Below, piece by piece: positions 14,001-61,581 of a stretch of 64,000 bases of DNA (its first letter is position 1; every line of letters begins with the position of its first letter). Source of the stretch: an uncultured bacterium (GTDB lineage Bacteria > Oederibacteriota > Muellerivitia > Muellerivitales > Muellerivitaceae); the NCBI GenBank assembly GCA_964624625.1, contig CAZUXW010000005.1:4681-68680 (forward strand). The letters run 5' to 3'. A program made the position numbers and the translations under genes. Below the pieces are notes generated by a model. It saw only the letters and a program-made list of their open reading frames with translations, was not told the DNA's origin and did not search any database.

Positions 14001-14651
14001 ACGGCAACCAATTCAACGACCCCGACTTCCTCGGCGACGCCCACCGCTACAGCCTCCGCTTCACCCACAAGAACCGCGGCGGCCACCCTTTCACCCTCTT
14101 CGACGAATACCTTCACAGCTTCCGCGACCCCCAGTCCCACGTCCACCGCGACGCCCTCGTTTACGCCGACTCCGTCAGCTACACTCACCACTACGGCTTC
14201 GCCATCTCCCACGAAGACCCCGACCTCAACCGCTTCGAAAACCCCGACAGCAACTCCCACTGTGACGCCTTCCCTTACTCCGACGAGGACCCCGACCCTG
14301 ACCGCTACTACATCCGCGACCAACACGCCCACCCAAACCTTTACCTCCACCGCCGCAACGACGGAAGTGGCCATCTCCTATCCCTATCCCAACCCATCCG
14401 ATGGGCTGATTCCGGTAACGGTGGAAATGAGGACTCCCGGCCAGGCCCAAATCCATTGGGCCGTCTTTACCACGGCCTTCCGGAAAATTCGGGAAGGGGA
14501 TAACACAATCAACGGCCTGGGAATGGTCACCTGGGACCTGAAGGACAAAAAGGGAACACCGGTCGCGGCGGGCTTGTATTACCTGAGGGTCGAGGTCAAA
14601 GGCGATTTTGGGACCACCGGGAAGATCCTGAAGGTTTTAGTGAGGCCTTAA
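11019..14651 (+). CDS. Secreted GH116-like (GBA2 / non-lysosomal glucosylceramidase-type, DUF608 (alpha/alpha)6 barrel) glycoside hydrolase with ~350-aa Pro/Thr/Ser linker and C-terminal FlgD-Ig / T9SS-type-A-like sorting domain
   Basis: Signal peptide. Motifs [42 protein letters not shown] and [15 protein letters not shown] recall GH116/GBA2 (recollection only). PT linker ~aa 768-1118. C-terminal YPYPNPSDG...[13 protein letters not shown]...YYLRVEV...KILKVLVRP. Start codon uncertain (GTG at 11019). Confidence 0.7.
13320..14370 (+). repeat. Low-complexity Pro/Thr/Ser/Ala-rich linker-coding region inside the GH116-like gene
   Basis: Translation is almost only T/P/S/A. Antisense spurious V/G/A-rich ORFs (13409..13648 -, 13649..14374 -). 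Confidence 0.7.
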
Positions 14652-42100: not shown

Positions 42101-43171
42101 ATGGCGGATCCGGGACGCACCGAAAAAGCGACGCCGAAAAGGCGGGAAGAGGCTCGCGAAAGGGGACAGGTTCCCCGTTCCGTCGAGGTTAATTCGGCGC
42201 TGATTTTGCTGACAGCGCTTTTGACTTTTCGATACGCGGGCCCCTATATGGTCGACTCCATGAATCAGGTGGCGGTTTTTTCCTACCAAAACATGAATAT
42301 GACATTGGGGATGGAGAGCGTCTACACCCTGGGTTTGTTTTACATGTGGCAAATTTTTAAGATTATCGCCCCTGTTTTGGGCATGGTTTTGCTGGTGGGG
42401 TTGATCGCGAATTATTTTCAAGTGGGCGTTTTATTCAGCTTGAAGCCGCTCGTTCCGAAGTTCAGCAACGTCAACCCCATGTCCGGGTTCCAAAAACTAT
42501 TTTCGCGCCGGTCCGCGATTGAGTTTGTCAAATCCCTGTTGAAACTTTCCCTGATCAGTTGGATCGTTTACAAGGGAGTCAAGACGGCCCTTCCTGAACT
42601 GGTCCCGACCATGGATATGCCCGGCACGGAAGCTTTGAGGTTTGTGGGGATGTTGACCATGAAAATTTTGAACACGGCTATTTTGGCCCTCGCCGCTTTG
42701 GCTGTGTTTGATTATTTCTATCAACGGTGGGAGTACGAGGACGGCCTTAAAATGACGAAACAGGAAGTTCGGGATGAATACCGTCAATCCGAGGGCGACC
42801 CGATGATCAAGGCCCGGATCCGGCAGATTCAAAGGGAGATGGCGCGCCGCCGAATGTTCGAATCGATCCCCAAGGCGGATGTGGTGATAACCAATCCCAC
42901 CCACGTGGCAGTGGCCCTGGAATATAAAGAGGGCATGTCGGCTCCCGTTGTTTTGGCCAAGGGCGAGAGGGTCGTCGCGGAAAAAATCAAGGAAATGGCG
43001 AAAAAAAACTTTATTCCGATCGTGGAAAATCCCCCTCTGGCGAGGGCGCTTTTAAAACAATGCCCGGTGGGAGCGCCTATTTCCCCCGATCTATTCGAGG
43101 CCGTGGCTGAAATTTTGGCCTTCGTCTACCGTGTGAATAAACAAAAGGGCGCTTCGAAAGCCGCTGGATAA
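42101..43171 (+). CDS. flhB: Flagellar biosynthesis protein FlhB
   Basis: MADPGRTEKATPKRREEARERGQVPRS. NPTH autocleavage site (VITNPTHVAVAL). Confidence 0.9.
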   Translation: MADPGRTEKATPKRREEARERGQVPRSVEVNSALILLTALLTFRYAGPYMVDSMNQVAVFSYQNMNMTLGMESVYTLGLFYMWQIFKIIAPVLGMVLLVGLIANYFQVGVLFSLKPLVPKFSNVNPMSGFQKLFSRRSAIEFVKSLLKLSLISWIVYKGVKTALPELVPTMDMPGTEALRFVGMLTMKILNTAILALAALAVFDYFYQRWEYEDGLKMTKQEVRDEYRQSEGDPMIKARIRQIQREMARRRMFESIPKADVVITNPTHVAVALEYKEGMSAPVVLAKGERVVAEKIKEMAKKNFIPIVENPPLARALLKQCPVGAPISPDLFEAVAEILAFVYRVNKQKGASKAAG

Positions 43172-48954: not shown

Positions 48955-50406
48955 ATGCAAGAACTGGTATTTGTTGAAATAGCCGATAATGAAATGCAGG
49001 CGAAAGTAACCGTTGTCCCCCCCCAAGCCGAAACCGACCGATTCTCAACTATTGACGATGTTCGTGACGCGCTCAAACGCCGGAATGTGGTTTACGGAAT
49101 CGACGAAACCCGCCTGGCTGAAATTTCCGCTAAACTTTCCCAATTCGCCGCCTCCAAAAACATCAATGAACCCATTGAAATGGACGTCGCCTTTGGAACC
49201 CCCCTCGCGAATGGCGAGGATGCCAGGGTCGAATATCTTTACAAGAAAAGCGAGGAAGAGGTCCCCGAAGTTCCCGTCGTTGAGGATGAGGAGGGCCGGG
49301 TGGATTACAAGGCCGCCCATAAAATTGACAACATCCTGAAAGGGACACTGCTGGCCCGGAAGATCCCCCCGACCAAGGGCATGAAGGGAATGACGGTTAC
49401 CGGTAAAGCGACGGAAGCCAAGGACGGGACGGACATTGAGGTTAAATTGGGAAAGGGAGTGGTTGTTTCCCCCACTAATCCGGACGAATACCTGGCCGAC
49501 GCGGATGGCCAAGTCATTGTTAAAGACAACAAAATTTCCGTCCTGGCCCTCTATGAGGTCGCCGGAGACGTCAACCTTTCCACGGGTAATATCGACTTTA
49601 TCGGGACCGTCGTGGTTCGAGGCGACGTGAAAGACGGGTTTAAGGTCTACGCGGGAGAAGACATCATCGTGAACGGCGTGGTGGAAGGGGCCGAAATTAA
49701 ATGCGGCGGTAAATTGACCATCGGGGGCGGCGTCAGCGGAAATGACAAGGCGAAAATCATCTGCCCCGGCGACGCCGCGATCAAGTATATCCGTAACGCC
49801 GAGGTGAACGTGGGAGGCAGCCTCACGACCGCCCAGGCCATCATGCATAGTAAAGTGACCGTCGGCAATAAAGTGACGGTCGCCGGTAAGAAGGGCGTTA
49901 TCGTCGGGGGACAGGTAATCGCAGGACGGGAAGTCTTTGCCGCCTCCATGGGATCCAATTTCGCCACTCCGACCGAAGTGATCGTGGGTGAGGCGGTGGG
50001 GTTGCGGGATGAATTGCAAAAAATGGATGTCGAACTCAAGGCGGCGGTTGAGAATCTGGATAAAACCAAAAAGGGAATCCAATTCCTCAAGGATCTGGCG
50101 GTGAAAATGGGCGGCACCTTGCCGCCTGACAAGAAAGAACTGTTGACCAAATTAACCAGGGCCCAGTTCGCCCTGATGGCTTCCACCAAGTCCCTGGCTG
50201 AAAAGAAACAAGATTTGGAAAAGAAAGAACAGGAAGGCGCGGATGACCGCCGCCGGCACGCCAAGGTCATGTGCATGGGAGTCATTCACACCGGCGTGAA
50301 GATCACCATCAATAAAGCGTCCCGTCAAATTTCGGAAGAGCTGAAATATTGCACCTTGACCGAGTCCGATGGTGAAGTCAAAGTTGGACCCTTCAAGGGT
50401 AATTGA
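48955..50406 (+). CDS. FapA family (DUF342) flagellar assembly protein, beta-helical
   Basis: N-terminal MQELVFVEIADNEMQAKVTVVPP...VYGIDE. Repetitive G-x-V/I beta-helix region. C-terminal coiled coil. Confidence 0.65.
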   Translation: MQELVFVEIADNEMQAKVTVVPPQAETDRFSTIDDVRDALKRRNVVYGIDETRLAEISAKLSQFAASKNINEPIEMDVAFGTPLANGEDARVEYLYKKSEEEVPEVPVVEDEEGRVDYKAAHKIDNILKGTLLARKIPPTKGMKGMTVTGKATEAKDGTDIEVKLGKGVVVSPTNPDEYLADADGQVIVKDNKISVLALYEVAGDVNLSTGNIDFIGTVVVRGDVKDGFKVYAGEDIIVNGVVEGAEIKCGGKLTIGGGVSGNDKAKIICPGDAAIKYIRNAEVNVGGSLTTAQAIMHSKVTVGNKVTVAGKKGVIVGGQVIAGREVFAASMGSNFATPTEVIVGEAVGLRDELQKMDVELKAAVENLDKTKKGIQFLKDLAVKMGGTLPPDKKELLTKLTRAQFALMASTKSLAEKKQDLEKKEQEGADDRRRHAKVMCMGVIHTGVKITINKASRQISEELKYCTLTESDGEVKVGPFKGN

Positions 50407-50416
50407 GCGGTTTGGA

Positions 50417-50752
50417 ATGAGGGGACTTGACGGAAATTATCTGAACACCCAGGGAGACGCTTCGGCCCGGATGCAGGTAAATTACCAGGCGGAAATCAAC
50501 CGCCAGCAACTCATGGCGCAGCTCGAGGGCGTGGAATCCCTTCGAAAACTGCGGGAGCAAGTCAATCAGGCCGAAAAGCAGGGGTCCTCGCCGGGTCCGC
50601 GGCAAGTGGCGGAAGACCAGGGATCCGAAGCCAGAGACGGAGATCGGGAACAAAATTCCGCCAAGCGGAAGAGTGAAAAGCCGAAAGAAGAATCAGCTGG
50701 CACCGAGCCGGCCGACAAAGCGACGAAGTCTCATATTGATATAAGGGTTTAA
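50417..50752 (+). CDS. Hypothetical coiled-coil protein with acidic/basic C-terminal tail (flagellar-cluster gene)
   Basis: ATG at 50417. The ORF is open from 50369 but that part overlaps fapA. No family recognised. Confidence 0.4.
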   Translation: MRGLDGNYLNTQGDASARMQVNYQAEINRQQLMAQLEGVESLRKLREQVNQAEKQGSSPGPRQVAEDQGSEARDGDREQNSAKRKSEKPKEESAGTEPADKATKSHIDIRV

Positions 50753-50753
50753 A

Positions 50754-51419
50754 ATGGATTTATTTTTCATTCTTCAAATTCTTTTTGACGCCGTCTTTTT
50801 ATTCGGCGTTTTATTCCTGTTTCACTACACGGTGAACCATTCCCAAAAGAAGAAGGAAGAGTCGGAGATATTGAAAAATGTCCAAGTCCAAGAGATTAAG
50901 GAAAATCTACAGGAGCTGTTGTTGACGCTGAAACAACTCGGCAGGGAAGTTTCCGAAAACATCCAGGAACAGGTAAGGGAAGCGGAGGAAAAAACCGAGG
51001 TCTTTAAGAAGGTCCTTCAGAGGCTTCAAAAGGACTTAAGCCGGGCCCGGGACCTGGCGGAAGAAGTGAGCGATGAAAAGACCAGGTTGGAAGCGAAGGT
51101 TAAGGTCATTCAAACCGCGAAGAAAAGAAGCCCTAAAAAAAACATCGAAAGGGAAATGGACTCGGATCCATCGCTGATGGAAAAGGGCGGGACGGAGCCG
51201 GGCCTCGCGGAAACAAGTTTGGAGAAGCCGGTTAAAAAGGGAAAGACCTTTGACCGGGTCGGAACCATTGGGTTCTCCTCGGCGCTCGTGAGGGAAGTTT
51301 ACCGTTTGGTGGACTCCAACATGGGCGTGAATGAGATTATCAAGCAAACCCGGTTGAGCCGCGCCGAAGTGCAGTTAATCTTAAATTTACGCGACAACCG
51401 TTTTACGACACCCAATTAA
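50754..51419 (+). CDS. Hypothetical membrane-anchored coiled-coil protein with C-terminal HTH-like segment
   Basis: N-terminal TM LFFILQILFDAVFLFGVLFLF. Long K/E-rich coiled coil. C-terminal VREVYRLVDSNMGVNEIIKQTRLSRAEVQLILNL resembles a sigma-region-4/LuxR-type HTH. Confidence 0.4.
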   Translation: MDLFFILQILFDAVFLFGVLFLFHYTVNHSQKKKEESEILKNVQVQEIKENLQELLLTLKQLGREVSENIQEQVREAEEKTEVFKKVLQRLQKDLSRARDLAEEVSDEKTRLEAKVKVIQTAKKRSPKKNIEREMDSDPSLMEKGGTEPGLAETSLEKPVKKGKTFDRVGTIGFSSALVREVYRLVDSNMGVNEIIKQTRLSRAEVQLILNLRDNRFTTPN

Positions 51420-51434
51420 AAAAAGTTTGGGCTG

Positions 51435-52121
51435 TTGATTTTTAGGCCGTGGTCAAGGGTGTGGGTTATGGAGCAGGTTTATCCAACGGAGGGCGGGGCC
51501 TCGTCGTTGTGGAGCGGTAAAAACCAAGGAAAGAGTTCATCCCAGGCTCCGGTTTACCCCCTGGGGGTTGTTGAAAAGGCCGTGGGGTCCGGAAATTTTT
51601 TGGTGGTTTTGGAAGATGGAAGCCGGATTGAGGTCAGGGGTTCTTCGGAATTGAAGCCGGGGAGCCGGGTTCGTTTATCGCCTCCCCCGGGCCGTTTGAC
51701 CGGAGGGGATTCGGCTCCCGGAGTGGAGGTCCCCCCGGGGGAAACGGCGGAAGGTCTTCAATGGCTTATTTTGATTCCCTTGGCCTTTGGGGGGGAGAAC
51801 GCCTCGGGCCGCCTGGAGGTTTTTGTTGAGAGGCAAAAAGAGGGACTGGGCTCCAAGCCGGAGGTCGCGACTTATTTTGTTTTTACGGTTCAAACGGACG
51901 CCAACGGCGAGGTTCAGTGGAGCATCTATCTGAAGGGGCGTCAAATCGCCCTTCAGGTTTTTTCTCAGGGCCCCAAGGGCGATAAGGAATCCTTGAAGCG
52001 ATTATTGGAAAGTGTTGAAGAGGCCTTGAAAAAGGGCGGATTTGTGATCATGGCGCCGGGAGTCTTGTTGAGCCGTCCTTTCAAGGTTCCGGCGGGTTTT
52101 CGTTTGAATGTCCAAGGGTGA
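51435..52121 (+). CDS. Putative FliK-like hook-length control (Flg_hook domain) protein
   Basis: LQWLILIPLAFGGENASGRLEVFVERQ...FTVQTDANGEVQWSIYLKGRQIALQVF...LKRLLESVEEALKKGGF follows the Flg_hook pattern L.P.eLG.v.v.l...v.l.a...L...L...G. Followed by an FlhB-C-like gene, a common pairing. Confidence 0.35.
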   Translation: MIFRPWSRVWVMEQVYPTEGGASSLWSGKNQGKSSSQAPVYPLGVVEKAVGSGNFLVVLEDGSRIEVRGSSELKPGSRVRLSPPPGRLTGGDSAPGVEVPPGETAEGLQWLILIPLAFGGENASGRLEVFVERQKEGLGSKPEVATYFVFTVQTDANGEVQWSIYLKGRQIALQVFSQGPKGDKESLKRLLESVEEALKKGGFVIMAPGVLLSRPFKVPAGFRLNVQG

Positions 52122-52428
52122 TGGAATGAGTCCTCCGGAGGAATCGCCGAAAAGAAGGGGCCAGCGGAAAACGGCCGTGGCGATACAATATGACCGGGCG
52201 ACAATGCCGGCCCCCCAGATGGTGGCGAAGGGAAGGGGCGTGGTCGCTGAAAAACTGATCGCGATGGCCAGGGAAAACGGCATTCCGATCGTGGAAAATA
52301 AGCTTCTGGTGGAAATGCTGGATAAATTGAATTTAAACCAGCAGATTCCTGGCGAGTTGTACCAAGTGGTGGCCGAGATTTTAGTCGCTGTTTATAAGGC
52401 TGAGGCTGGGATGAAAAAGAAATCTTGA
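52108..52428 (+). CDS. FlhB C-terminal domain protein (FlhX / YlqH-like, EscU/YscU/HrcU family)
   Basis: AVAIQYDRATMPAPQMVAKGRGVVAEKLIAMARENGIPIVENKLLVEMLDKL aligns closely with FlhB residues [49 protein letters not shown] in this same window. Confidence 0.75.
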   Translation: MSKGDGMSPPEESPKRRGQRKTAVAIQYDRATMPAPQMVAKGRGVVAEKLIAMARENGIPIVENKLLVEMLDKLNLNQQIPGELYQVVAEILVAVYKAEAGMKKKS

Positions 52429-52461: not shown

Positions 52462-54612
52462 GTGACGGCAACGGTGCGAAATAACTACCTCAATAACAAT
52501 ATTTTATCCCCCGGCTACAGGCGGTTTTTGGGAGGCCTGGCTTTGGGTCTCCAGGTTTTTCTAATGTCCGCGGCTTGGGCCAACGCCCAGTCCGGCATCG
52601 TGACGAGGCCGGTTTTCGACCGTAAGGAGACCTTCGGGATCGGGCCCAGGGCCATGGGGATGGGCGGAGCCTTCACCGCGGTGGCGGATGATTCCTCGGC
52701 GGTCTATTGGAACGTGGCGGGGTTGGCCCAGCTCTCGGCCTATGAAATATCCATTTCCAGCGCGCCGGTTTATTTCCGGGATAAGGTGGGCACGGCGGAC
52801 GCCTTCGGGTTTCCCTGGTTCGCGTCCCTGCAGTTCATGATGCCGATCGCCAATGACAATACCTTCGGCATCTCCTATTTCCGGCCCTTTCATCCCCAGA
52901 GGGATTTTTACGCGGGGGACACCACCATGTCCCAGGGCAACCGGGAAGAGGGAAGCTACTTTCAAAACCCGAGCTTCCAGCAGGACGAATTGATATTGTC
53001 CTACGCGGCGAGATTCTCGTCGGTCAAGAATTTTTCCATCGGCGTCAACGTGAAGCGGATCACGAACGACCCCTATTACATCCGTTTTTTGGGAGATTCC
53101 CAATCCGAGACCCTGATCGCCCAACAGTTACAAAGCCCCGTCCGGGTGGTGGGCTTTGGCGTGGACTTGGGGCTTTTGTACCGAATCCCCATCACCAAGT
53201 ATTCGGAGGAGTTCCGGATCGGATTGTCCTTGAAGGACATGGTGACCACCGCCACCTACTCGAACGGTTTCAAATTGACCGATCCCGGCGCCAACATTTT
53301 ATTCGACGAGGGAACCGGCGATATCCCCGTCGCCCCGGAAATTACCCTGGGCCTCGCCTACAAGAATAATTTTCTCTTCAAGGTCCGCAACATCACGGCT
53401 TTTGATTTCGACCAGATATCCTCGCCCAATGTTTCCGACGCGGAAAATAAGATCCTCCGGTTTGGAACGGAGTTTTGGCTTTTCAAGGACGTACTGGGCC
53501 TTAGGACCGGCTATTCGACCTTCTTAAGCCGTCCCGGGTTCATTCATCTGGGGTTAAGCGTCCGGGCCCTCAACGGCGATTTCCAAACGGACGTGGCCTA
53601 CATCATGCCGGTCGCTCCCTCGGCCAGCGTCTCGGAAGGATCCCAGACCGGCTACATCAATACTGGCGGGATTAACTTCGAGCCTTTCCACATCGGGATT
53701 TCCTATCGGTTCGGCGGCGGGGAAGAAGTTCCACCGGCGAAGGTTAAAGCCTTTGTCCGTCCTGCTTCCTTCACGCCTTCCCAGGGCGAGAAGGCCGGTT
53801 TTTATCTCGACACCACTGAGGATGTTTCCATCAACCGTTGGAGCGTCTTGATCTATGACTCCTCCAATCACCTGGTGAGGGGATTGCGCGGAAAAGGCTC
53901 CCCCCCGACGAAACTGCTTTGGAGCGGGGAGAATGACCAGTACGAGCCCTTGCCTCCCGGTGTTTATACTTGGGCCTTTCAAGTCCTCGACCAATTGGAC
54001 CATGTCGGCTCCACCCCGGTGCAAACGGTCGAGATTTTAGGGCCTTCCTCGGCGGACACCCTGAAGGATCCCGGCAAATTGCTGGCGATTCGCCAGCAGC
54101 AAGCGGAACTTTTGGCCCAAGAACGCCAACAGTTGACGGCCCTGGCCCAAGAAAACCTCAAAAAACTGCTGGGTGTCCCGGAAGCGACCCCCACGACAGC
54201 CAACGCGGCCCAGACCCCCGTGGAAGCCAATGGCAACACCTTGGTACCGGAAGCCGGTACGGTTCCCGCCTTGGGCTTTAATAACGTGGCAAAAGACCAG
54301 GTTTTAAACACCCACTTCGATAAAAACCCCGAGGGGGACACGATTATCGTGGTGAGCTACAGGTCAAACCTCACTTTTGTGCCCTATCTTTACCAGGAAG
54401 CGGCGGAAGTGATCAAAACAAGCGTAAATTCGGTCGGAACAGGTTTAAAAGGGATATCAACTCGTGTATATTATGGCAAAAATGAGCTTACCCTGGAGAC
54501 AACGACGCAGGCGGCGGCGAACTTTGCCTCGGGGAAAATTGACCAGATGAAATTATTGCAATTGTCCGATATTAAAATAAACGGTGCGAAGGTAGGCCCG
54601 AATGGTTACTAG
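52462..54612 (+). CDS. Outer-membrane beta-barrel protein with PorV/PorQ/FadL-like N-terminal signature, fused to a FlgD-Ig-like domain and a Gln-rich C-terminal region
   Basis: Signal peptide. IGPRAMGMGGAFTAVADDSSAVYWNVAGLA (PorV-family hallmark). Alternating amphipathic beta-strands over ~400 aa. Then SVLIYDSSNHLVRGL...LLWSGENDQYEPLPPGVYTWAFQV (FlgD_ig-like). Confidence 0.55.
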   Translation: MTATVRNNYLNNNILSPGYRRFLGGLALGLQVFLMSAAWANAQSGIVTRPVFDRKETFGIGPRAMGMGGAFTAVADDSSAVYWNVAGLAQLSAYEISISSAPVYFRDKVGTADAFGFPWFASLQFMMPIANDNTFGISYFRPFHPQRDFYAGDTTMSQGNREEGSYFQNPSFQQDELILSYAARFSSVKNFSIGVNVKRITNDPYYIRFLGDSQSETLIAQQLQSPVRVVGFGVDLGLLYRIPITKYSEEFRIGLSLKDMVTTATYSNGFKLTDPGANILFDEGTGDIPVAPEITLGLAYKNNFLFKVRNITAFDFDQISSPNVSDAENKILRFGTEFWLFKDVLGLRTGYSTFLSRPGFIHLGLSVRALNGDFQTDVAYIMPVAPSASVSEGSQTGYINTGGINFEPFHIGISYRFGGGEEVPPAKVKAFVRPASFTPSQGEKAGFYLDTTEDVSINRWSVLIYDSSNHLVRGLRGKGSPPTKLLWSGENDQYEPLPPGVYTWAFQVLDQLDHVGSTPVQTVEILGPSSADTLKDPGKLLAIRQQQAELLAQERQQLTALAQENLKKLLGVPEATPTTANAAQTPVEANGNTLVPEAGTVPALGFNNVAKDQVLNTHFDKNPEGDTIIVVSYRSNLTFVPYLYQEAAEVIKTSVNSVGTGLKGISTRVYYGKNELTLETTTQAAANFASGKIDQMKLLQLSDIKINGAKVGPNGY

Positions 54613-56179
54613 AGTCCTAGTAGCGACCCTTTTACTTTTTTCGCTTGGCGCATCCAAGGGTTTCGCTGCGTTTGATAAAGGGGGAGTTTCGGGTTTAGGG
54701 GCCCGTCCTTTGGGTATGGGCGGGGCCTTCTCCACTATCGCGGATACGGGCGACGCCATATTTTATAATCCCGCGGGATTGGTCCAGGTATTAAGGCCTG
54801 AGGTTTCCGGCATGGGCGCTGTTCTTTTAAACGGAAAAGAAGACTTGTTTGACTTGGCCTATGTCCAGCCCTTTGGGGATCAAATGGCTTGGGCCCTGGC
54901 GACCCAGCAGTTGTTCTTCACCGATGGTTCCGAAAATGAGAGGATTTATTACGGAACCTTTGCCGCCCCATTGGCCATTGATAAATCGATATCCTTTGGC
55001 TTGAACATCAAGCTTTTCACCGTTGATTCGGCGACCCAGCCTGGGCAACAGGCCAGCGGCATCGGGTTGGATATGGGTTTTCTCTACCACATCCCCATCC
55101 TCAACCCCCGTTACGGAAAACAGCTTAATATCGGCTTGTCCGCGGAGGATTTGGACACCAAAATCCGCTACCAAGCCGGCAATGAGGATCCCATCCCCTT
55201 GAGGGTCCGCGGCGGGTTTAGCTATCAATTTACCGACGACTTGGTGACGGCGTTTGAGTTTTCCGATTTCAACGACCCGAACCTGGGCTCCCATCACACT
55301 TTGCTCTTGGCCGGAATTGAAGGCTGGTTTTTTGAGGATCAATTGGGATTGCGGACGGGATATACGGGCTTCCAAACCTTGGACGGCCAATTTACCGCCG
55401 GTATCAGCTACAGGTCCAAGACCTGGGGGATCGACTACGCCTACATCGGCCATGCCCAATTCCTCGGTTCTTCCCACCGCATCTCGGCCAATTGGCGTTT
55501 TGGCGATTCCTTCCTAGGCAAGGTCAAGAGCTTCATCCCGGAGGGCGTGACGGCTTATGTGGAGGGGGATATTATTACCTTGCGGTGGAATAACTCACCC
55601 TCGCTTTCCCTGGCTGGTTACAACGTTTATTTCAGCAAAACCACCGGGAGCGGCTATGTCAAGATCAACCAAAAGGCCGTTAAGGCCAACTATTATTCCC
55701 TCCGGGGCCTCGAGAAGAACACCAAGTATTATTTCGTGGTGAGTTCCGTCACCAACACGATTCCTCCGGTGGAGAGCCAATTTTCCCGCGAGATTTACGC
55801 GGGAACGACCGCCGCTCCCGGCGCTCCCGTGGTGGTCCAGAGCGATGTTCAAAATGAGGGCGTGATCGATATCGCCAAACAAGTGGGGATGGCCGGATTC
55901 CCGGATCCCGCCAAGAATAACCTGAAGGGTTATAATATTTACGTTTCCGAGGTATCGGGAGGCCGCGAGGACAAGATCAACGTCCAACCCCTCGCTAATT
56001 TGCCGACCTACCTGGTCCGGAAGCTGAAGGTTGGCCAGAAATATTTCTTTACCTTTACCTCGGTTGGATTGGATGGATCCGAAAGCGCCCATTCCAAGGA
56101 GTCGGGCGTGGTAGCCTTGCCATTCAGCGCGGTGATGCAGCCGGCCGGTACAAGTGTTAATCAACCTGCGACCAAATAA
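54602..56179 (+). CDS. Outer-membrane beta-barrel protein (PorV/PorQ/FadL-like signature) with two C-terminal fibronectin type III domains
   Basis: Signal peptide. LGARPLGMGGAFSTIADTGDAIFYNPAGL. Barrel ~300 aa. FN3 repeats (ITLRWNNSPSLSLAGYNVYFSK...KYYFVVSSV; LKGYNIYVSE...KYFFTFTSV). Confidence 0.55.
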   Translation: MVTRVLVATLLLFSLGASKGFAAFDKGGVSGLGARPLGMGGAFSTIADTGDAIFYNPAGLVQVLRPEVSGMGAVLLNGKEDLFDLAYVQPFGDQMAWALATQQLFFTDGSENERIYYGTFAAPLAIDKSISFGLNIKLFTVDSATQPGQQASGIGLDMGFLYHIPILNPRYGKQLNIGLSAEDLDTKIRYQAGNEDPIPLRVRGGFSYQFTDDLVTAFEFSDFNDPNLGSHHTLLLAGIEGWFFEDQLGLRTGYTGFQTLDGQFTAGISYRSKTWGIDYAYIGHAQFLGSSHRISANWRFGDSFLGKVKSFIPEGVTAYVEGDIITLRWNNSPSLSLAGYNVYFSKTTGSGYVKINQKAVKANYYSLRGLEKNTKYYFVVSSVTNTIPPVESQFSREIYAGTTAAPGAPVVVQSDVQNEGVIDIAKQVGMAGFPDPAKNNLKGYNIYVSEVSGGREDKINVQPLANLPTYLVRKLKVGQKYFFTFTSVGLDGSESAHSKESGVVALPFSAVMQPAGTSVNQPATK

Positions 56180-56189
56180 GGAGCCTTGA

Positions 56190-56975
56190 ATGCCCAGTGG
56201 ACTTTACATAGCGGCTTCGGGAATGGATTCCACCATTACCCGGGAAAACGTCATCTCGAACAACCTGGCCAATTTAAGCACGGTTGGGTTTAAGCAAAAC
56301 CGGGCGGTGGACGTCGCTTTTCCAACCTATTTGATCGCGCGGCTGCACGACCAGAAGATGAAGGTGATGGATGGAACCGCCGAGCTTCGGCCCAACATCG
56401 GTTTCATGGGCGGAGGCGTCATCCCGCAGGAAGTCGCGACGGATTATTCCCAAGGTTCAAGGCTGGAAACCAAGAATCCGCTGGATTTCGCCCTGACGGG
56501 CCCAGGTTTTTTCTCGGTTTTGTCGCCGGAGGGGAAGACCTACTTGACCAGGGCCGGAAGTTTCAGCCTGGATTCCAACGGGCGCCTGGTGACTTCGGAC
56601 GGCCTGCCGGTTTTGGGCCATAACGGGGAGATCTATATCGACGGTTCCAAGGTCACGGCGGATGAGGAAGGCAACCTGACGGTGGATGGAAAAGCCCAGG
56701 ACCAGCTGTTGATCGTCAAGGTGAAAGACGAGAACCAACTGTTCAAAGTGGGGCATTCCCTGTTTCAGGCCACGCCCCAAAACAAGATCGACATGTCCCC
56801 GGATGGCATTCAGGTTCAACAGGGCTTTTTGGAACAGTCCAACGTGAACGCCATCCAGGAGATGGTCAATATGATTGAGGTTTCCAGGTCTTATGAGCTG
56901 AACGCGAAAATTGTTTCGCTGTACGACCAAGTTTTGGGAGAAGCTTCATCCCAAATTGGCGCTTTGAGGGCTTAG
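56190..56975 (+). CDS. flgF: Flagellar basal-body rod protein FlgF
   Basis: MPSGLYIAASGMDSTITRENVISNNLANLSTVGFK. C-terminal GFLEQSNVNAIQEMVNMIEVSRSYE. Confidence 0.8.
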   Translation: MPSGLYIAASGMDSTITRENVISNNLANLSTVGFKQNRAVDVAFPTYLIARLHDQKMKVMDGTAELRPNIGFMGGGVIPQEVATDYSQGSRLETKNPLDFALTGPGFFSVLSPEGKTYLTRAGSFSLDSNGRLVTSDGLPVLGHNGEIYIDGSKVTADEEGNLTVDGKAQDQLLIVKVKDENQLFKVGHSLFQATPQNKIDMSPDGIQVQQGFLEQSNVNAIQEMVNMIEVSRSYELNAKIVSLYDQVLGEASSQIGALRA

Positions 56976-57134
56976 TGGTTGTGGGCCTGGCGGGCCTTGA
57001 GCTTGCCGGGGTAGTGGTAAAACGGCCGGACTGCAATGCGGAGGCCGTTCTCACCGCCGAATGATGGACGCGGTGAAAAAATCGGGAGCAAAAGCCCCAG
57101 CGGGCCGATAGTCCCCGAATCTTGAGGAGGCATT

Positions 57135-57923
57135 ATGCAGTCTTTGTACACGGCAGCAACCGGCATGCAAGCTCAGAGCATGAACATTGATACCATTTCC
57201 AACAACCTGGCCAACGTCAGCACCAACGGCTTCAAGAAACAAAGGGTGGACTTCCAGGATTTGTTGTATCTCAACCTGAAACCGGCCGGCACCCCGACTT
57301 CCCCCGAGACGAATGTTCCGGTGGGGATTCAAATCGGCGAAGGCGTCAAGCCGGTCGACACCAAGCGCATCTTCACCCAAGGCACCATTTCCAACACCAA
57401 TAATCCCCTGGACCTGCTCATCGAGGGCGACGACAGTTTCTTTAAGGTTGTCCGGCCCGACGGCGAGATCGTCTATACCAGGGACGGCTCCTTTAACCGG
57501 GACGGCAACGGCAACGTGGTGAACGCGGACGGTTATTTCATGGATCCGCCGGTTCAAATCCCCGCGGACGCCTCGCAGGTGCAAATCACGCTCGACGGGC
57601 GGATCATGGTCACGACTTCCGGCCAAACCCAGCCGGCCCAAGTGGGGCAATTGGAACTGGCCAGGTTCGTGAACACCGCAGGGCTCTCGGCCCTGGGGCA
57701 CAATAATTTCCAGACCACGGCCGCTTCCGGAGACCCCATCGAGGGAACCCCCGGTTCCGTTGGTTTTCCGCAGGTCCAGCAGGGCTCGTTGGAATTGTCC
57801 AACGTGGATGTGGTCACGGAGATGGTCAATATGATCGTCGCCCAACGCTCTTATGAAATGAATTCCAAGGCAGTGACGACGGCGGACCAGATGCTTCAAA
57901 CCGCCGCGCAATTGATCAGGTAA
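57135..57923 (+). CDS. flgG: Flagellar basal-body distal rod protein FlgG
   Basis: MQSLYTAATGMQAQSMNIDTISNNLANVSTNGFK. C-terminal GSLELSNVDVVTEMVNMIVAQRSYE. Confidence 0.9.
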   Translation: MQSLYTAATGMQAQSMNIDTISNNLANVSTNGFKKQRVDFQDLLYLNLKPAGTPTSPETNVPVGIQIGEGVKPVDTKRIFTQGTISNTNNPLDLLIEGDDSFFKVVRPDGEIVYTRDGSFNRDGNGNVVNADGYFMDPPVQIPADASQVQITLDGRIMVTTSGQTQPAQVGQLELARFVNTAGLSALGHNNFQTTAASGDPIEGTPGSVGFPQVQQGSLELSNVDVVTEMVNMIVAQRSYEMNSKAVTTADQMLQTAAQLIR

Positions 57924-57933
57924 CCTAAAGTTA

Positions 57934-58917
57934 GTGAAACGAAAAATTTTTAATTTGGTGATGGCGCTTTTTTGCGGCATGGGTTCCCTGGGGGCCGCCG
58001 CCGAGAATCAAGGGGTTCTGATCCGGCTGCCGGAGAGGGCAACCGTGGTGGGGCCGGAGATTGTCCTGGGACAAGTCGCCGAGGTCATCGGCGACAACAA
58101 GGCGGTGCTGGAAAAGGTCCGCCGCCTGCGTTTGGGAAGCGCGGCGCCTGCCGGCAAAAACCTGAAAGTGACCCTGGGATATATCAAGGTCGCCCTCCGC
58201 CGCGAAGGCTACTCGTTGAAGGATTTTTCGTTTGAGGGCGTGGAAACGTCCGATGTGTTGACCCAGAGCAGGGAATTGGCGACCGGGGACCTGGTTCCGG
58301 AGGTGAAGGACTTCATCGTAAAAGGGTTGAGGGAATCCCCGGAAAACGTGGAAGTGAAGCTGGCGGGGCCCGAGAAAAAAATCCTGCTGCCCGCGGGGGA
58401 TTTAAAAGCGACATTTCGGCCGCCTCTTTCGGGGAAGTACGAGGGGACGCTCCTGCTGACGAGCGAGTTGGAAGTGGACCGCCGGCTGGTGAAGGTGATG
58501 CCCCTGAGGGTCGTGGTGGAGGTTTTTCATCCGGTGGTGGTCGCCCGCCGCAAGGTTGAAAAGGGGGATAAGTTCACCCCGGAAAACGTGGCGCTGGTCC
58601 GGAAACCGAGTTCCGCCTTAATCGCGGGATCGATCAGCCAGTTGGCCAGCGTGATGGGCCGGACGGCCTCCGCCCCCATACCGGCCGGAACGATCCTCCG
58701 GATGACAGAGTTTTATGATCCCCCCATGGTCAAAAGGGGGGCGGTCCTGCAGGCCGTGGTAAGGCGGGGTAATGTGGAGATTTCGGTCCAGGTGAGGGCG
58801 TCGGAAGAGGGAAAGGCCGGAGACACGATCCGGGTTGAGAACACGGACACGCACAAGGTTCTGCGTGGAAAAGTATTGGATGAAAAAACGGTCTTGGTGG
58901 ATCAGGACAAGCCTTAG
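57934..58917 (+). CDS. flgA: Flagellar P-ring assembly chaperone FlgA
   Basis: Signal peptide. C-terminal SAF domain (PAGTILRMTEF...GNVEISVQVRASEEGKAGDTIRVEN). Precedes flgH-flgI. Confidence 0.8.
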   Translation: MKRKIFNLVMALFCGMGSLGAAAENQGVLIRLPERATVVGPEIVLGQVAEVIGDNKAVLEKVRRLRLGSAAPAGKNLKVTLGYIKVALRREGYSLKDFSFEGVETSDVLTQSRELATGDLVPEVKDFIVKGLRESPENVEVKLAGPEKKILLPAGDLKATFRPPLSGKYEGTLLLTSELEVDRRLVKVMPLRVVVEVFHPVVVARRKVEKGDKFTPENVALVRKPSSALIAGSISQLASVMGRTASAPIPAGTILRMTEFYDPPMVKRGAVLQAVVRRGNVEISVQVRASEEGKAGDTIRVENTDTHKVLRGKVLDEKTVLVDQDKP

Positions 58918-58924
58918 TTAAGGG

Positions 58925-59551
58925 ATGGGGGTCGGTATGATGACAAATAAAACGATGATATTTTTCCTGGGTTTGGCGGTTTTCGCTTCCTGCCAAACGC
59001 TGGTGGCGGATTCGCTGTTCCCCGTGGAGGGGTCCAGCTCCATTTACACCGAGAAACGCGCCCGCCGGGTGGGCGACGTCATCACCGTCATGATCCAGGA
59101 AGTAAACCAGGCGACCAACGCCGCCAGCAGCCAGGACCAGAAATCGGGAAGCGTGGTGGTGGGGGCCGGCAACGGCTTTTTAGGGTCCGCCAATTTCCTC
59201 AACAACAACATTAATAATAATATCGGCTTGGGCGGCGGCACCTCCCATCAGGGGCAGGGCACCTCCAGCCGGAGTTCCAAGGTGACGGGCCAAATGACGG
59301 CTAAAATCATATCGGTTCTGCCCAGCGGGAATTATTTGATCGAGGGAAGCCGCTATGTCGAGGTGAACGACGAGAAGCAAACGATCGACGTCACGGGCGA
59401 GATCCGCCCCGACGATATTTCCAGCGATAATACGGTCCTTTCCACCAGGGTGGCCAACGCGAGGATCAAGTTCACGGGAACCGGGCCTGCGTCGGAAACG
59501 GCGAAACCGGGCCTTTTGACAAGGGTCATGAGCTGGCTGGGTCTCTTCTAA
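58925..59551 (+). CDS. flgH: Flagellar L-ring protein FlgH
   Basis: Lipoprotein-like signal with Cys (LAVFASCQ). SLFPVEGSSSIYTEKRARRVGDVITVMIQE hallmark. Confidence 0.85.
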   Translation: MGVGMMTNKTMIFFLGLAVFASCQTLVADSLFPVEGSSSIYTEKRARRVGDVITVMIQEVNQATNAASSQDQKSGSVVVGAGNGFLGSANFLNNNINNNIGLGGGTSHQGQGTSSRSSKVTGQMTAKIISVLPSGNYLIEGSRYVEVNDEKQTIDVTGEIRPDDISSDNTVLSTRVANARIKFTGTGPASETAKPGLLTRVMSWLGLF

Positions 59552-59568
59552 AAAAGACGGGGGTTTGA

Positions 59569-60687
59569 ATGATGATGAAAAACAATAAGATGAAATGGAT
59601 GGCCGCCCTTTTCTTTCTCCTGGCCGCTGGATCTTCGGACGCCGCCCAAGTCCGCCTGAAAACCATCGCGAAAGTGAAGGGGGTCCGTGAAAACCAATTG
59701 ATCGGATACGGCCTGGTGGTGGGACTTCAGAGAACCGGGGATACCCAGAGGGTCGTTTCGACGCTGCAAAGCATCACCAATATGCTGTCCCAATTCGGCA
59801 TCGCCATCAGCCCCGCCCAGATCCGGACCCAAAATGTGGGCGCGGTCATGGTGACCGCCCAACTTCCGGCGTTATTGAAGTCCGGCGATAAAATCGACGT
59901 GACCGTCTCTTCCATCGGCGACGCCCGCAGCCTTCAAGGCGGAACCCTCCTGATGACCCCGCTCCAAGGCCCTGATGGCCAGGTTTACGCCGTGGCCCAA
60001 GGCCCCCTGGCGGTCGGCGGCTTCAGCGATAACTCCGGCGAGTTTCCCCTTATTCAAGTCAACCACACGACCGCTGGCCGCGTTCCCAATGGGGCCTTGG
60101 TCGAAAGGGAAGTGCCCTCCACTTTCGTGGACAACGACAATATTTCCATCCTTTTGAACAAACCCGATTTTGGCCAGGCCTCCATGGCAGCCCAGGCCTT
60201 GAACCAGCAATTCGGCGAGCCGGTGGCCAAGGCGGTGGATGGAGGACAAATCGACGTGAAGATACCCCATAACTACCGGGATAATGTCGTTGAATTTGTC
60301 GCCGCGGTGGAAGACACGGCCGTGATGACGGACGCCCCTTCCAACCGCGTGGTGATCAACGAAAGGACCGGAACGGTGGTCATGGGCCAGGATGTCCGGA
60401 TTGACGGACTGGCGATCGCCCACGGTAACCTTAGGCTGGTCATCAAAAAAACGACCCAAGTCAGCCATGACGCGGTCTTCGGCCATGACGAGCTGACCCA
60501 CTCCACGACGGTTTCGGTGGATGACTCGGGCAAAAAGGGAAACTTGGTGGTCCTGCCTGAGGGCGCCACCTTGGTGGACGTGGTGGAGGCGATCAACGCG
60601 GTGGGAGCCACTCCCCGGGATTTGATCTCCATCCTCCAGGCCATCAAAGAAGAAGGCGCCTTGCACGCTGAGCTGGACATTATTTAA
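59569..60687 (+). CDS. flgI: Flagellar P-ring protein FlgI
   Basis: Signal peptide. RLKTIAKVKGVRENQLIGYGLVVGLQRTGD. Confidence 0.9.
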   Translation: MMMKNNKMKWMAALFFLLAAGSSDAAQVRLKTIAKVKGVRENQLIGYGLVVGLQRTGDTQRVVSTLQSITNMLSQFGIAISPAQIRTQNVGAVMVTAQLPALLKSGDKIDVTVSSIGDARSLQGGTLLMTPLQGPDGQVYAVAQGPLAVGGFSDNSGEFPLIQVNHTTAGRVPNGALVEREVPSTFVDNDNISILLNKPDFGQASMAAQALNQQFGEPVAKAVDGGQIDVKIPHNYRDNVVEFVAAVEDTAVMTDAPSNRVVINERTGTVVMGQDVRIDGLAIAHGNLRLVIKKTTQVSHDAVFGHDELTHSTTVSVDDSGKKGNLVVLPEGATLVDVVEAINAVGATPRDLISILQAIKEEGALHAELDII

Positions 60688-60700
60688 CCAGGACGAATTC

Positions 60701-61162
60701 ATGAGCATGCCCCTTCAACCCATTTCCATGATGCCCCTCCCTCAATCGATTGAGTCGAAGGGCTTTTCCGCGGCATCGCTTCAACAAGCGTTGGCCTTGG
60801 AGGGTTCTTTAGGATCCCAGGCGGCTGGTCAGGCGATGGGCGGGTCGAATGCCCTTCTCCCCTTGGATAAGTCTTCCCTGCTCAATCCCTTGAGCGGCCC
60901 GGCCCAGCACACGGACGCCCAGTTGAGGGAAGTTTCCAAGAATTTTGAGTCCATCTTCATGCGGATGCTCTTTAAGGAAATGCGCAATACCGTTGAAAAA
61001 TCCAACGCCTTGGGCAACTCCCGCTCCATGGAATTTTTCGAGAATATGAGGGACGAGCAGTTATCCGACAGCCTCGCTTCCGCTGGCGGCATCGGCATCG
61101 GCAAAATGATTTACCAGAAATTAAAGGAGACGACTTTACCCCACCAGAAAATGTTTAAATGA
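60701..61162 (+). CDS. flgJ: FlgJ-like rod-binding domain protein (no muramidase domain)
   Basis: REVSKNFESIFMRMLFKEMRNT...GGIGIGKMIYQKL matches the Rod-binding (PF10135-like) pattern. Only 153 aa. Confidence 0.6.
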   Translation: MSMPLQPISMMPLPQSIESKGFSAASLQQALALEGSLGSQAAGQAMGGSNALLPLDKSSLLNPLSGPAQHTDAQLREVSKNFESIFMRMLFKEMRNTVEKSNALGNSRSMEFFENMRDEQLSDSLASAGGIGIGKMIYQKLKETTLPHQKMFK

Positions 61163-61581
61163 AGCTGGCCAATTGTTCCCGCTGCAATAGGGTTTACACG
61201 TCCGTTCCCGGGGGCAGGGACATCTGCCAATCCTGCATGAGGGAAGAGGACGATAACTACCGCAAAATCTTCAACTTTCTCTCGACCCGCCCCGCCGCCA
61301 CAGCCCAAGAAATCGCCCAAGCCACCGACATCGACGTTAAGGACATCTACCGTTATGTCCGCGAGAACCGTTTGAGGCTGGTCCAGGGTGATACGGGCCT
61401 GACTTGCGAAGGATGCGGGATACCCATAGCCCAGGGCAAGATTTGCGATAAATGCCGGCAAAAGCTATCGGAAGACCTCAAAAATGACATAGATAAATCC
61501 CGGCCCCTCAAGCCACAGAACCCCTCGGGCCGGCGTGAGGAGCCCCCAGACCCCAAGTATTTGAAGGATCGACGGGGCTAG
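61159..61581 (+). CDS. Flagellar operon zinc-ribbon protein, YvyF family (TIGR03826-like)
   Basis: MKLANCSRCNRVYTS...CQSCMREEDDNYRKIFNFL with a second CxxC pair (CEGCG...CDKC). Position immediately upstream of flgM as in Bacillus. Confidence 0.55.
   Translation: MKLANCSRCNRVYTSVPGGRDICQSCMREEDDNYRKIFNFLSTRPAATAQEIAQATDIDVKDIYRYVRENRLRLVQGDTGLTCEGCGIPIAQGKICDKCRQKLSEDLKNDIDKSRPLKPQNPSGRREEPPDPKYLKDRRG

What the first reader, a model, noticed from the sequence alone, without database searches (positions are those of the whole stretch)
52462..56179. Two PorV/PorQ-like outer-membrane beta-barrel genes embedded inside the flagellar operon, fused to FlgD-Ig-like and FN3 domains
Between the FlhB-C-like gene (ends 52428) and flgF (starts 56190) sit two tandem, slightly overlapping genes of 716 and 525 aa. 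Both have signal peptides and the N-terminal motif G-x-G-x-R-x-x-GMGGAF-x-x-x-AD-x-x-x-A-x-x-x-N-x-AGL. That motif characterises PorV/PorQ/PorP-type T9SS beta-barrels and the wider FadL-like superfamily. The first adds a FlgD-Ig-like domain (VLIYDSSNHLVRGL...LLWSGENDQYEPLPPGVYTWAFQV). It is the same fold as the C-terminal sorting domains on the glycoside hydrolases in this window and as the hook-cap FlgD Ig domain. The second adds two FN3 domains. Gene spacing (34 nt before, 10 nt after, 11 nt overlap between them) implies co-transcription with the rod, ring and export genes. No canonical flagellar component has this architecture. They may be novel outer-membrane parts of the flagellum (collar, disk or sheath, analogous to Vibrio H/T-ring or Campylobacter FlgP/FlgQ), or a T9SS PorV-type shuttle genetically coupled to motility.
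Basis: partly seen in the sequence, partly recalled or inferred. Interest (0 to 1): 0.85.

Follow-up and report, generated by a model that had tools for sequence, protein, structure and literature searches.

The report
Outer-membrane barrel pair heading flagellar ring operon
Two neighbouring genes for outer-membrane barrel proteins with extra domains that probably hang into the periplasm sit directly in front of the flagellar rod and ring genes in about fifty uncultured bacterial species, so they are probably an undescribed outer-membrane part of the flagellar motor.

The parts
52462..54612 (+). Gene A, 716 aa: predicted outer-membrane barrel with periplasmic extension (whole gene including stop)
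   Evidence: ORF; NF033709 at E 1.9e-20; about 75 full-length or fragmentary orthologs; model at pLDDT 72.8
52462..52587 (+). A residues 1-42: putative signal peptide (RR, hydrophobic core, AWA/ANA site; no Cys)
   Evidence: Read from the sequence; helix 17-43 in the model; no dedicated predictor was run
52627..52740 (+). A residues 56-93: conserved N-terminal motif GxGxRxxGMGGAF...N(P/V)AGL, interpreted as the FadL-type hatch
   Evidence: Most conserved segment of A: 53% identity to distant orthologs against 30% for the barrel; pLDDT 88-91
52741..53712 (+). A residues 94-417: 14-stranded beta-barrel
53734..54042 (+). A residues 425-527: FlgD-Ig-like beta-sandwich domain
   Evidence: Pfam FlgD_ig at E 0.0025-0.011 in the window protein and 8e-6 / 2e-5 in distant orthologs; the family profile hits FlgD 3osv at E 0.067; beta-sandwich at pLDDT ~89
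54070..54291 (+). A residues 537-610: single long helix (537-569), then a Pro/Thr/Ala-rich low-confidence linker
   Evidence: Model secondary structure, with pLDDT below 50 for residues 572-603; present in all orthologs though poorly conserved
54292..54609 (+). A residues 611-716: family-specific alpha/beta C-terminal domain (conserved VYYGKNEL and INGxKVGPN)
   Evidence: Model pLDDT 82-91; no significant PDB sequence match; only 38 representatives among 1.84 billion proteins, mostly A-family
54602..54612 (+). 11-nt overlap of the A stop with the B start (ATGGTTACTAG)
   Evidence: the same -11 overlap in 14 of the 17 distinct close-clade loci where both ORFs were resolved; -4 to +59 nt elsewhere
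54602..56179 (+). Gene B, 525 aa: predicted outer-membrane barrel with two FN3 domains (whole gene including stop)
   Evidence: ORF; NF033709 at E 1.9e-23; orthologs down to 36% identity; model at pLDDT 75.6
54668..54799 (+). B residues 23-66: conserved N-terminal motif with YNPAGL, after a 22-residue putative signal peptide (54602-54667)
   Evidence: 61% identity to distant orthologs, the most conserved part of B; sequence
54800..55501 (+). B residues 67-300: compact 14-stranded beta-barrel with short loops
   Evidence: 14 strands; Foldseek top hit PorV 6h3i_F at E 2.7e-10, TM 0.63 on the target; the family profile hits the PorV sequence at E 6e-4; paralogous to the A barrel at 28% identity over 332 aa, E 7e-29
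55529..55816 (+). B residues 310-405: first FN3 domain
   Evidence: Pfam fn3 at E 1.2e-8; the profile matches tandem FN3 of titin and fibronectin; model
55844..56125 (+). B residues 415-508: second FN3 domain
   Evidence: Two fn3 stretches; the profile covers positions 331-525 on tandem FN3 structures; model
52108..52428 (+). Upstream neighbour: stand-alone FlhB C-terminal-domain protein (106 aa)
   Evidence: PF01312 at E 3.7e-21, profile positions 261-335 only; conserved upstream of A in the FCPU426 clade
56190..60687 (+). Downstream block always linked to A-B: flgF (56190-56975), flgG (57135-57923), flgA (57934-58917), flgH (58925-59551), flgI (59569-60687)
   Evidence: Pfam assignments; synteny counts

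Best explanation
A and B are a paralogous pair of integral outer-membrane proteins that act with the flagellar basal body of candidate division FCPU426 and its relatives labelled Goldbacteria and Coatesbacteria. Each is anchored in the outer membrane by a 14-stranded FadL/PorV-type barrel. Each hangs beta-sandwich domains into the periplasm: A carries an Ig-like domain, a roughly 5-nm helix, a flexible linker and a family-specific alpha/beta domain; B carries two FN3 domains. They are made together with the distal rod (FlgF, FlgG), the P-ring chaperone FlgA, the L ring (FlgH) and the P ring (FlgI). I propose they assemble, probably as A-B hetero-oligomers, around the L/P-ring bushing. There they would tie it to the outer membrane and provide a periplasmic scaffold, doing the job that lipoprotein rings (Vibrio H-ring FlgO/FlgP/FlgT, Campylobacter basal disk) do elsewhere. 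Shown here: the genes, their folds, their paralogy, the conserved gene order, the tight spacing and the matching rate of divergence. Inferred: outer-membrane location, periplasmic orientation of the extra domains, physical association with the motor, and ring formation.
Against: There is no experimental, expression or imaging evidence; every organism concerned is uncultured. One locus (L002) has A-B followed by a cluster of DUF11-domain surface-protein genes instead of flgF, although a second B-like gene lies at the contig end. Non-flagellar relatives of the barrels sit beside genes for large proteins that end in, or carry weak hits to, Ig-type sorting-like domains. The ancestral role of the barrel may therefore be binding such domains at the cell surface rather than scaffolding. 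The periplasmic orientation is inferred, not shown. The models have only moderate confidence (pLDDT 73-76). FlgH here has a normal lipobox (FASC), so no anchoring defect is evident that A and B would need to compensate.
Confidence: 0.55

Rival explanations
1. A and B are transient assembly factors rather than permanent motor parts. On this view they locally organise or open the outer membrane, or dock the Ig-domain-bearing hook cap FlgD, so that the L ring can insert and the rod-to-hook transition can cross the outer membrane.
For: They are co-transcribed with the P-ring chaperone FlgA and the ring proteins. Relatives of the barrels are partnered with FlgD_ig-like domains, and FlgD itself carries that fold (the A-family profile hits FlgD 3osv at E 0.067). 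From general knowledge, FadL-type barrels have a lateral opening into the membrane.
Against: B is as conserved as the rod protein FlgF, and the elaborate multi-domain periplasmic extensions are kept in all orthologs. That fits a stoichiometric structural part at least as well. No known flagellar system needs such a factor, and FlgH here looks standard.
Confidence: 0.15
2. A and B are PorV/PorP-like receptors or anchors of a T9SS-like sorting pathway. On this view they hold proteins with Ig-type C-terminal domains, such as the window's cellulases or DUF11 adhesins, at the cell surface, and are only co-regulated with motility.
For: PorV is the best structural match for both proteins. Both hit NF033709 at E 1e-20 to 1e-23. 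GH9 and GH116 in the window share a C-terminal YPNP...G(I/L)YY domain (57% identity, E 5e-41). Relatives P0232, P0228 and P0116 each lie directly downstream of the gene for a large protein; two of those end in such a domain and the third has weak FlgD_ig and CHU_C hits. DUF11 surface-protein clusters adjoin A-B in L002, L041 and L048.
Against: Scores against the T9SS equivalogs are far below cutoff: PorV 23 and 30 bits against 250, PorQ 18 against 220, PorV2 49 against 325. No SprA, PorK-N, PorU or PorZ gene lies near A-B in about 55 loci, whereas flgF-flgI always do. The hydrolase tails are not called as T9SS sorting domains by Pfam or NCBIfam at E up to 1. A carries its Ig domain internally and in cis, not as a cleavable C-terminal signal. 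The barrel-Ig-OmpA paralogs indicate that this Ig domain is periplasmic.
Confidence: 0.12
3. A and B are ordinary FadL-type uptake channels or general outer-membrane structural proteins. On this view they merely ride in the flagellar operon and have no role in the flagellum.
Against: Hitch-hiking does not explain an identical position at 22-40% identity with four or more different upstream contexts. It does not explain translational coupling or a FlgF-like divergence rate. No fatty-acid or aromatic catabolic genes are adjacent. The periplasmic Ig, FN3 and orphan domains have no counterpart in transport FadL proteins.
Confidence: 0.08
4. The C-terminal domains are exported to the cell surface in the manner of an inverse autotransporter. 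On this view they form an external collar or an adhesive structure at the flagellar exit.
Confidence: 0.05

Closest known systems
PorV (T9SS outer-membrane shuttle; PDB 6h3i chain F, 8gl6 chain F)
   Same: It is the best structural match for both barrels. It is a 14-stranded FadL-fold barrel with a conserved N-terminal segment, and it works as a partner subunit of a larger outer-membrane machine. Both window proteins hit the broad PorV/PorQ family HMM at E 1e-20 to 1e-23.
   Different: A and B fail the PorV, PorQ and PorV2 equivalog cutoffs by roughly ten-fold. They carry large C-terminal multi-domain extensions that PorV lacks. They occur as a tandem paralogous pair. Their conserved neighbours are flagellar rod and ring genes, not T9SS genes.
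FadL / TodX / TbuX hydrophobic-substrate channels
   Different: No catabolic gene context. Extra periplasmic Ig, FN3 and alpha/beta domains. B has a minimal barrel with very short loops. Transport was not tested.
BamG, the FadL-like subunit of the Bacteroidota BAM complex (PDB 9n2d chain B, 9hjm chain F, 9hj3 chain F)
   Different: It belongs to a different machine and a different phylum, has no C-terminal periplasmic domains, and partners with BamA and surface lipoproteins.
Vibrio H-ring (FlgO, FlgP, FlgT) and Campylobacter basal disk (FlgP, FlgQ)
   Same: These are lineage-specific, outer-membrane-associated additions around the L/P rings, and they are encoded in flagellar clusters. The role proposed here is analogous.
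   Different: FlgO and FlgP are small lipoproteins anchored by an N-terminal lipidated cysteine (bioRxiv 10.64898/2025.12.02.691832). A and B have no lipobox cysteine, are integral barrels, and show no sequence relationship to those proteins. No Pfam or NCBIfam flagellar family matches A or B apart from the sub-threshold FlgD_ig hit.
Barrel-FlgD_ig-OmpA paralogs in the same phylum (P0081-P0083; locus L056)
   Same: Same barrel family and the same barrel-then-Ig order. A aligns to P0083 through both regions at E 4e-16.
   Different: They end in a peptidoglycan-binding OmpA domain where A has its helix, linker and orphan domain. They lie among general envelope genes, not flagellar genes.
GltA/GltB and NfsA/NfsB outer-membrane barrel pairs of Myxococcus motility and spore-coat machines (from my own knowledge, not checked here)
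   Same: Paired paralogous outer-membrane barrels that are dedicated parts of an envelope-spanning motility machine.
   Different: Different barrel family and a non-flagellar machine. No homology was tested.

Membership tests
PorV/PorQ family (NCBIfam NF033709, subfamily model) | Whole-protein score at or above the curated cutoff of 90 bits | tested here: not met
   A scores 73.7 bits and B 83.6 bits. Both are highly significant (E 1.9e-20 and 1.9e-23) but below the cutoff. Some orthologs are named 'PorV/PorQ family protein' by NCBI (P0034, P0192, P0213).
T9SS PorV (NF033710) / PorQ (NF033711) / PorV2 (NF052325) equivalogs | Score at or above the equivalog cutoff (250 / 220 / 325 bits) | tested here: not met
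   PorV: 23.0 bits (A) and 30.2 bits (B). PorQ: 17.9 bits (B). PorV2: 48.8 bits (A) and 28.8 bits (B).
T9SS PorV (functional system) | Co-occurrence with T9SS core genes (SprA/Sov, PorK-N, PorU, PorZ) and with cargo bearing a recognised T9SS C-terminal domain | tested here: inconclusive
   No such genes appear in the window or within about 10 kb of A-B in the loci examined. GH9 and GH116 carry a shared Ig-type C-terminal domain that Pfam and NCBIfam do not call as a T9SS sorting domain. Whole genomes could not be searched.
FadL/TodX outer-membrane transport family (Pfam PF03349, FadL fold) | 14-stranded barrel | tested here: met
FadL/TodX outer-membrane transport family (Pfam PF03349, FadL fold) | N-terminal hatch with a conserved NPA motif | tested here: inconclusive
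   B has YNPAGL. The window's A has WNVAGL, while the A-family consensus is WNPAGL. This segment is the most conserved in both proteins. Whether it plugs the lumen was not examined in coordinates.
FadL/TodX outer-membrane transport family (Pfam PF03349, FadL fold) | Transport of hydrophobic substrates | not testable with these tools
No catabolic genes lie nearby.
Flagellar outer-membrane accessory rings (FlgO/FlgP/FlgQ/FlgT type) | Sequence homology to FlgP, FlgO, FlgQ or FlgT, and an N-terminal lipoprotein anchor | tested here: not met
   No such Pfam or NCBIfam hits. Neither leader has a lipobox cysteine. FlgO and FlgP are lipoproteins.
Flagellar outer-membrane accessory rings (functional class) | Encoded within the flagellar gene cluster and conserved there across species | tested here: met
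   50 of 51 loci have flgF next to B, and 42 of 43 have FlgG, FlgH and FlgI downstream. In distant lineages A heads the operon.
Flagellar outer-membrane accessory rings (functional class) | Physical location around the L/P rings | not testable with these tools
   This needs cryo-ET, purification of basal bodies, or multimer modelling.
Inverse autotransporters (intimin/invasin) | 12-stranded barrel with a pore-traversing linker and a surface passenger | tested here: not met
OmpA-like outer-membrane-to-peptidoglycan tethers | C-terminal OmpA (PF00691) peptidoglycan-binding domain | tested here: not met
   Absent from A and B. Present in the paralogs P0079 and P0081-P0083.

The most novel reading that the evidence does not exclude
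A and B are the first integral beta-barrel structural subunits of a bacterial flagellar motor. In this reading a hetero-oligomeric ring of FadL/PorV-type barrels is embedded in the outer membrane around the L ring. Its periplasmic Ig, FN3 and orphan domains reach the P ring, the peptidoglycan or the stators. The module would have evolved from barrels that bind Ig-type C-terminal sorting-like domains, linking the evolution of a T9SS-like surface-anchoring module to flagellar motor elaboration.
Probability: 0.4. Interest if true: 0.85.

Novelty: new variant of a known kind. Interest (0 to 1): 0.68.

Why it matters
Flagellar motors differ between lineages mainly in the accessory structures added around a conserved core. 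Every outer-membrane-associated accessory characterised so far, as far as I know and as far as six literature searches showed, is a lipoprotein or a periplasmic protein. A conserved, translationally coupled pair of integral FadL/PorV-type barrels at the head of the rod/L-ring/P-ring operon would be a different way of coupling the motor to the outer membrane. It would also be a third case, after PorV-SprA and BamG-BamA, of this transporter fold being reused as a subunit of an outer-membrane machine. It gives a concrete, gene-level prediction for cryo-ET of candidate phyla (FCPU426 and Goldbacteria, which include cellulose degraders from peat and soil) whose cell biology is unknown. It also marks a barrel family that databases currently label 'PorV/PorQ family' or 'hypothetical', which invites wrong inference of type IX secretion.

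Tried and rejected
1. Scans for sigma-28 and sigma-54 promoter motifs upstream of A, in lineages where A heads the operon, found nothing consistent. The generic sigma-70 and terminator scan in the window was at chance level.

3. The mention of FadL in the H. pylori FapH paper concerns an unrelated suppressor mutation in hp0839.

4. TPR-fused barrel relatives (P0116, P0119) are not in flagellar contexts.

5. The 692-aa and 829-aa genes upstream of the barrels in L060 and L059 looked like A homologs by size. They match A only in a C-terminal Ig-type domain.

6. T9SS sorting-domain models do not recognise the glycoside hydrolase tails.

7. Literature searches combining PorV, PorQ, FadL or UPF0164 with flagellar terms, and searches on FCPU426 and Goldbacteria, found no description of these genes.

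8. Searches failed because of a frame error and were repeated.


Full report
OBSERVATION. The two ORFs exist as described: A at 52462..54612 (716 aa) and B at 54602..56179 (525 aa). They overlap by 11 nt. A starts 33 nt after a 106-aa protein that consists only of the FlhB C-terminal domain (PF01312, E 3.7e-21). B ends 10 nt before flgF. Both proteins carry the quoted N-terminal motif. Both match NCBIfam NF033709 (PorV/PorQ family) at E 1.9e-20 and 1.9e-23, with 73.7 and 83.6 bits against a cutoff of 90. B has two FN3 domains. A has a FlgD-Ig-like domain that is below threshold in the window protein (E 0.0025-0.011) and scores better in distant orthologs. The rest of the window confirms a complete flagellar cluster: fliF, fliG, fliH, fliI, motA, motB, fliM, fliN, fliR, flhB, flhA, flhF, flhG-like, fliA, fapA, the flhB-C-like gene, A, B, flgF, flgG, flgA, flgH, flgI, a rod-binding flgJ-like gene, flgM and flgN.

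ORGANISM. The closest relatives are MAGs labelled candidate division FCPU426. Copies at 36-40% identity to B occur in MAGs labelled Goldbacteria/Goldiibacteriota, Coatesbacteria, 'uncultured Spirochaetia' and a few others. A published study places FCPU426 16S sequences with Goldbacteria. It describes the group as cellulolytic and flagellated, and reports that flagellar genes are absent from the sibling clades Firestonebacteria and Elusimicrobia (PMC7031533). The window's GH9, GH18 and GH116 genes fit that picture.

SYNTENY. This is the key result. I compared 55 loci by tblastn: 51 from one genome per species, plus four found by exact-protein look-up. Three of the 55 are the same organism. flgF directly follows B in 50 of 51 loci with room downstream. 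An A-like gene directly precedes B in 48 of 48 loci with room upstream. FlgG, FlgH and FlgI all follow in 42 of 43 loci with at least 5.5 kb downstream. A further JGI contig shows the same order. In the FCPU426 clade the upstream genes are also flagellar. In the distant lineages the gene before A is a housekeeping gene of at least four different kinds: pyruvate kinase, the DUF4416 gene that follows miaA, a DUF4130 gene next to a radical-SAM gene, or an HATPase-domain gene. A there begins the operon A-B-flgF-flgG-flgA-flgH-flgI. The linkage is therefore specifically to the distal rod and the L and P rings, the part of the machine that crosses the peptidoglycan and the outer membrane. Spacing is tight throughout: A to B is -11 to +59 nt, with the same 11-nt overlap in 14 of the 17 distinct close-clade loci where both ORFs were resolved, and B to flgF is mostly 0-77 nt. 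The window shows no excess of promoter-like or terminator-like sites. B has diverged at the rate of FlgF: mean identity 77 against 74 in the close clade and 38 against 40 in the distant clade. A evolves faster, at 65 and 27. All domains are retained in all orthologs, and the N-terminal motif is the most conserved part of both proteins.

THE EXCEPTION. In L002, A-B are followed by seven genes with DUF11 domains, including an 1831-aa protein, and then by another B-like gene at the contig end. In two Coatesbacteria-like loci the same kind of DUF11 cluster lies upstream of A-B-flgF. This looks like a lineage-specific insertion rather than a loss of linkage, but the contig end prevents proof.

ORIENTATION. 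FadL-fold barrels have an even number of strands, so from general knowledge both termini should be periplasmic. Independent support comes from paralogs in the same phylum. P0081, P0082 and P0083 are ordered barrel, FlgD_ig, OmpA. A aligns to P0083 through the barrel and into the Ig domain at E 4e-16. The OmpA domain binds peptidoglycan and so must be periplasmic. By homology, A's post-barrel domains should be periplasmic as well. That paralog lies among general envelope genes (SurA, TPR and PD40-repeat genes), not flagellar ones. The barrel is thus a widely reused outer-membrane anchor module in this phylum, and A and B are its flagellum-linked members.

A COMPLICATION THAT KEEPS A RIVAL ALIVE. 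The more distant, non-flagellar relatives of these barrels each sit immediately downstream of the gene for a large protein. These relatives are P0228 (barrel plus FN3), P0232 (barrel only, labelled Elusimicrobia) and P0116 (TPR plus barrel). The partners of P0228 and P0232 end in an Ig-type C-terminal domain, and the partner of P0116 has weak FlgD_ig and CHU_C hits. From my own knowledge, this resembles the cargo-plus-PorP/SprF gene pairing of T9SS organisms. GH9 and GH116 in the window share such a tail, YPNP...G(I/L)YY, at 57% identity and E 5e-41. The ancestral activity of this barrel family may therefore be to bind Ig-type domains. In A that kind of domain is fused in cis and is internal, which suggests that B's barrel or A's own barrel may bind it.

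MECHANISM PROPOSED (confidence 0.55). A and B insert into the outer membrane and form hetero-oligomers at the flagellar base. Their periplasmic Ig and FN3 domains, together with A's helix-linker-domain arm, contact the L/P-ring bushing, the peptidoglycan or the stators. This would tie the motor to the outer membrane and scaffold it, as the lipoprotein-based H-ring and basal disk do in other lineages. PorV on SprA and BamG on BamA are precedents for FadL-fold barrels used as fixed subunits of outer-membrane machines (PMC12578637). Rivals: a transient assembly factor for outer-membrane penetration (0.15); a T9SS-like receptor for C-terminal Ig-type domains that is co-regulated with motility (0.12); a hitch-hiking transporter or general outer-membrane protein (0.08); and a surface-exposed passenger (0.05).

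NOVELTY. Six literature searches and five papers that I checked gave no description of a barrel-type flagellar accessory or of these genes. I rate it a new variant of a known kind: a lineage-specific flagellar motor accessory, built from a different class of protein. Interest is 0.68. The genomic case is unusually clean, but the function rests on context and predicted folds, in uncultured organisms.

Noticed in passing
window 2..3058 (GH9) and 11019..14651 (GH116), last ~100 codons of each: The two glycoside hydrolases end in a shared C-terminal domain after a Pro/Thr linker (57% identical, pairwise E 5e-41), with motif YPNP...W-D-L-x-D-x-x-G...G(I/L)YY. GH18 (8705..10651) lacks it. Pfam and NCBIfam do not call it a T9SS sorting domain; the only hit is FlgD_ig at E 0.02. 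It resembles the C-terminus of the 692-aa protein next to a PorV-like barrel in L060 (pairwise E 2e-5). It may be an unrecognised sorting or anchoring signal in this phylum.
   Followed up: partly
L060:1-7852: On a contig whose PorV-like barrel protein (P0232) is labelled Elusimicrobia, eight tightly packed + strand genes lie in this order: a TPR-plus-barrel protein, a 473-aa protein with only a FliG_C domain, MotA/ExbB, two OmpA-domain proteins, a 692-aa protein ending in an Ig-type C-terminal domain, the 395-aa PorV-like barrel P0232, and a TPR/LysM protein. No other flagellar gene lies within 13 kb, and a published study reports Elusimicrobia as lacking flagellar genes. This may be a non-flagellar MotAB/FliG-like machine coupled to an outer-membrane barrel. 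The same barrel protein was seen on 24 contigs, and 23 similar places were not shown.
   Followed up: partly
L002:11687-21361; L041:279-3306; L048:37-3852: Clusters of small DUF11 (PF01345) proteins plus a giant DUF11-repeat protein (1831 aa, with a FlgD_ig-like segment) lie directly next to the A-B pair in a Coatesbacteria-like lineage. They are downstream of A-B in L002 and upstream of A-B-flgF in L041 and L048.
   Followed up: partly
L056:8001-9746: The same FCPU426 contig that carries locus L013 also encodes a paralog ordered barrel, FlgD_ig, OmpA (P0082). It lies next to SurA-like, TPR and PD40-repeat genes, with another small UPF0164-like barrel nearby. PorV-like barrels seem to be this phylum's general outer-membrane anchor module.
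   Followed up: partly
window 52108..52428: A stand-alone 106-aa protein consists only of the FlhB C-terminal (autocleavage) domain. It is present in addition to the full-length flhB at 42101..43171 and is conserved directly upstream of A throughout the FCPU426 clade.
   Followed up: partly
window 50369..52121: Three ORFs with no family assignment (127, 221 and 228 aa; the 221-aa one has a weak DUF2802 hit) lie between fapA and the flhB-C-like gene. The 221-aa and 228-aa ORFs are conserved at the same position in FCPU426 loci, so they may be further lineage-specific flagellar genes.
   Followed up: partly
window 61159..61581: A 140-aa cysteine-rich protein with weak zinc-ribbon hits lies between the rod-binding flgJ-like gene and flgM. 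A gene of similar size with no Pfam hit holds the same position in L003.
   Followed up: no
proteins P0254, P0255, P0257, P0261 (not in the window): Giant proteins (1100-2900 aa) with FG-GAP or cadherin-like domains and Por_Secre_tail or CHU_C sorting domains contain 6-13 tandem copies of an unassigned unit of about 55 residues. The unit matches the first half of A's C-terminal domain.
   Followed up: partly
L059:21-6523: The most divergent B-like protein (P0228, 28% identity, barrel plus FN3) is preceded by an 823-829-aa protein that ends in an Ig-type C-terminal domain. It is followed by a GAF-HD signalling protein and not by flgF. This seems to mark the edge of the flagellar association.
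   Followed up: partly
L008, L024, L029, L034, L038-L040, L042, L051, L052: Records labelled 'uncultured proteobacterium', 'uncultured Spirochaetia' or 'Candidatus Methylomirabilis' carry the same A-B-flgF-flgG-flgA-flgH-flgI operon as FCPU426 and Goldbacteria MAGs, so these taxonomic labels are probably unreliable.
   Followed up: no
window 25632..27785: A 717-aa GAF-GAF-GGDEF diguanylate cyclase lies about 2 kb upstream of fliF, and a PilZ protein sits between the flhG-like gene and fliA in the related locus L003. This hints at c-di-GMP control of this flagellar cluster.
   Followed up: no
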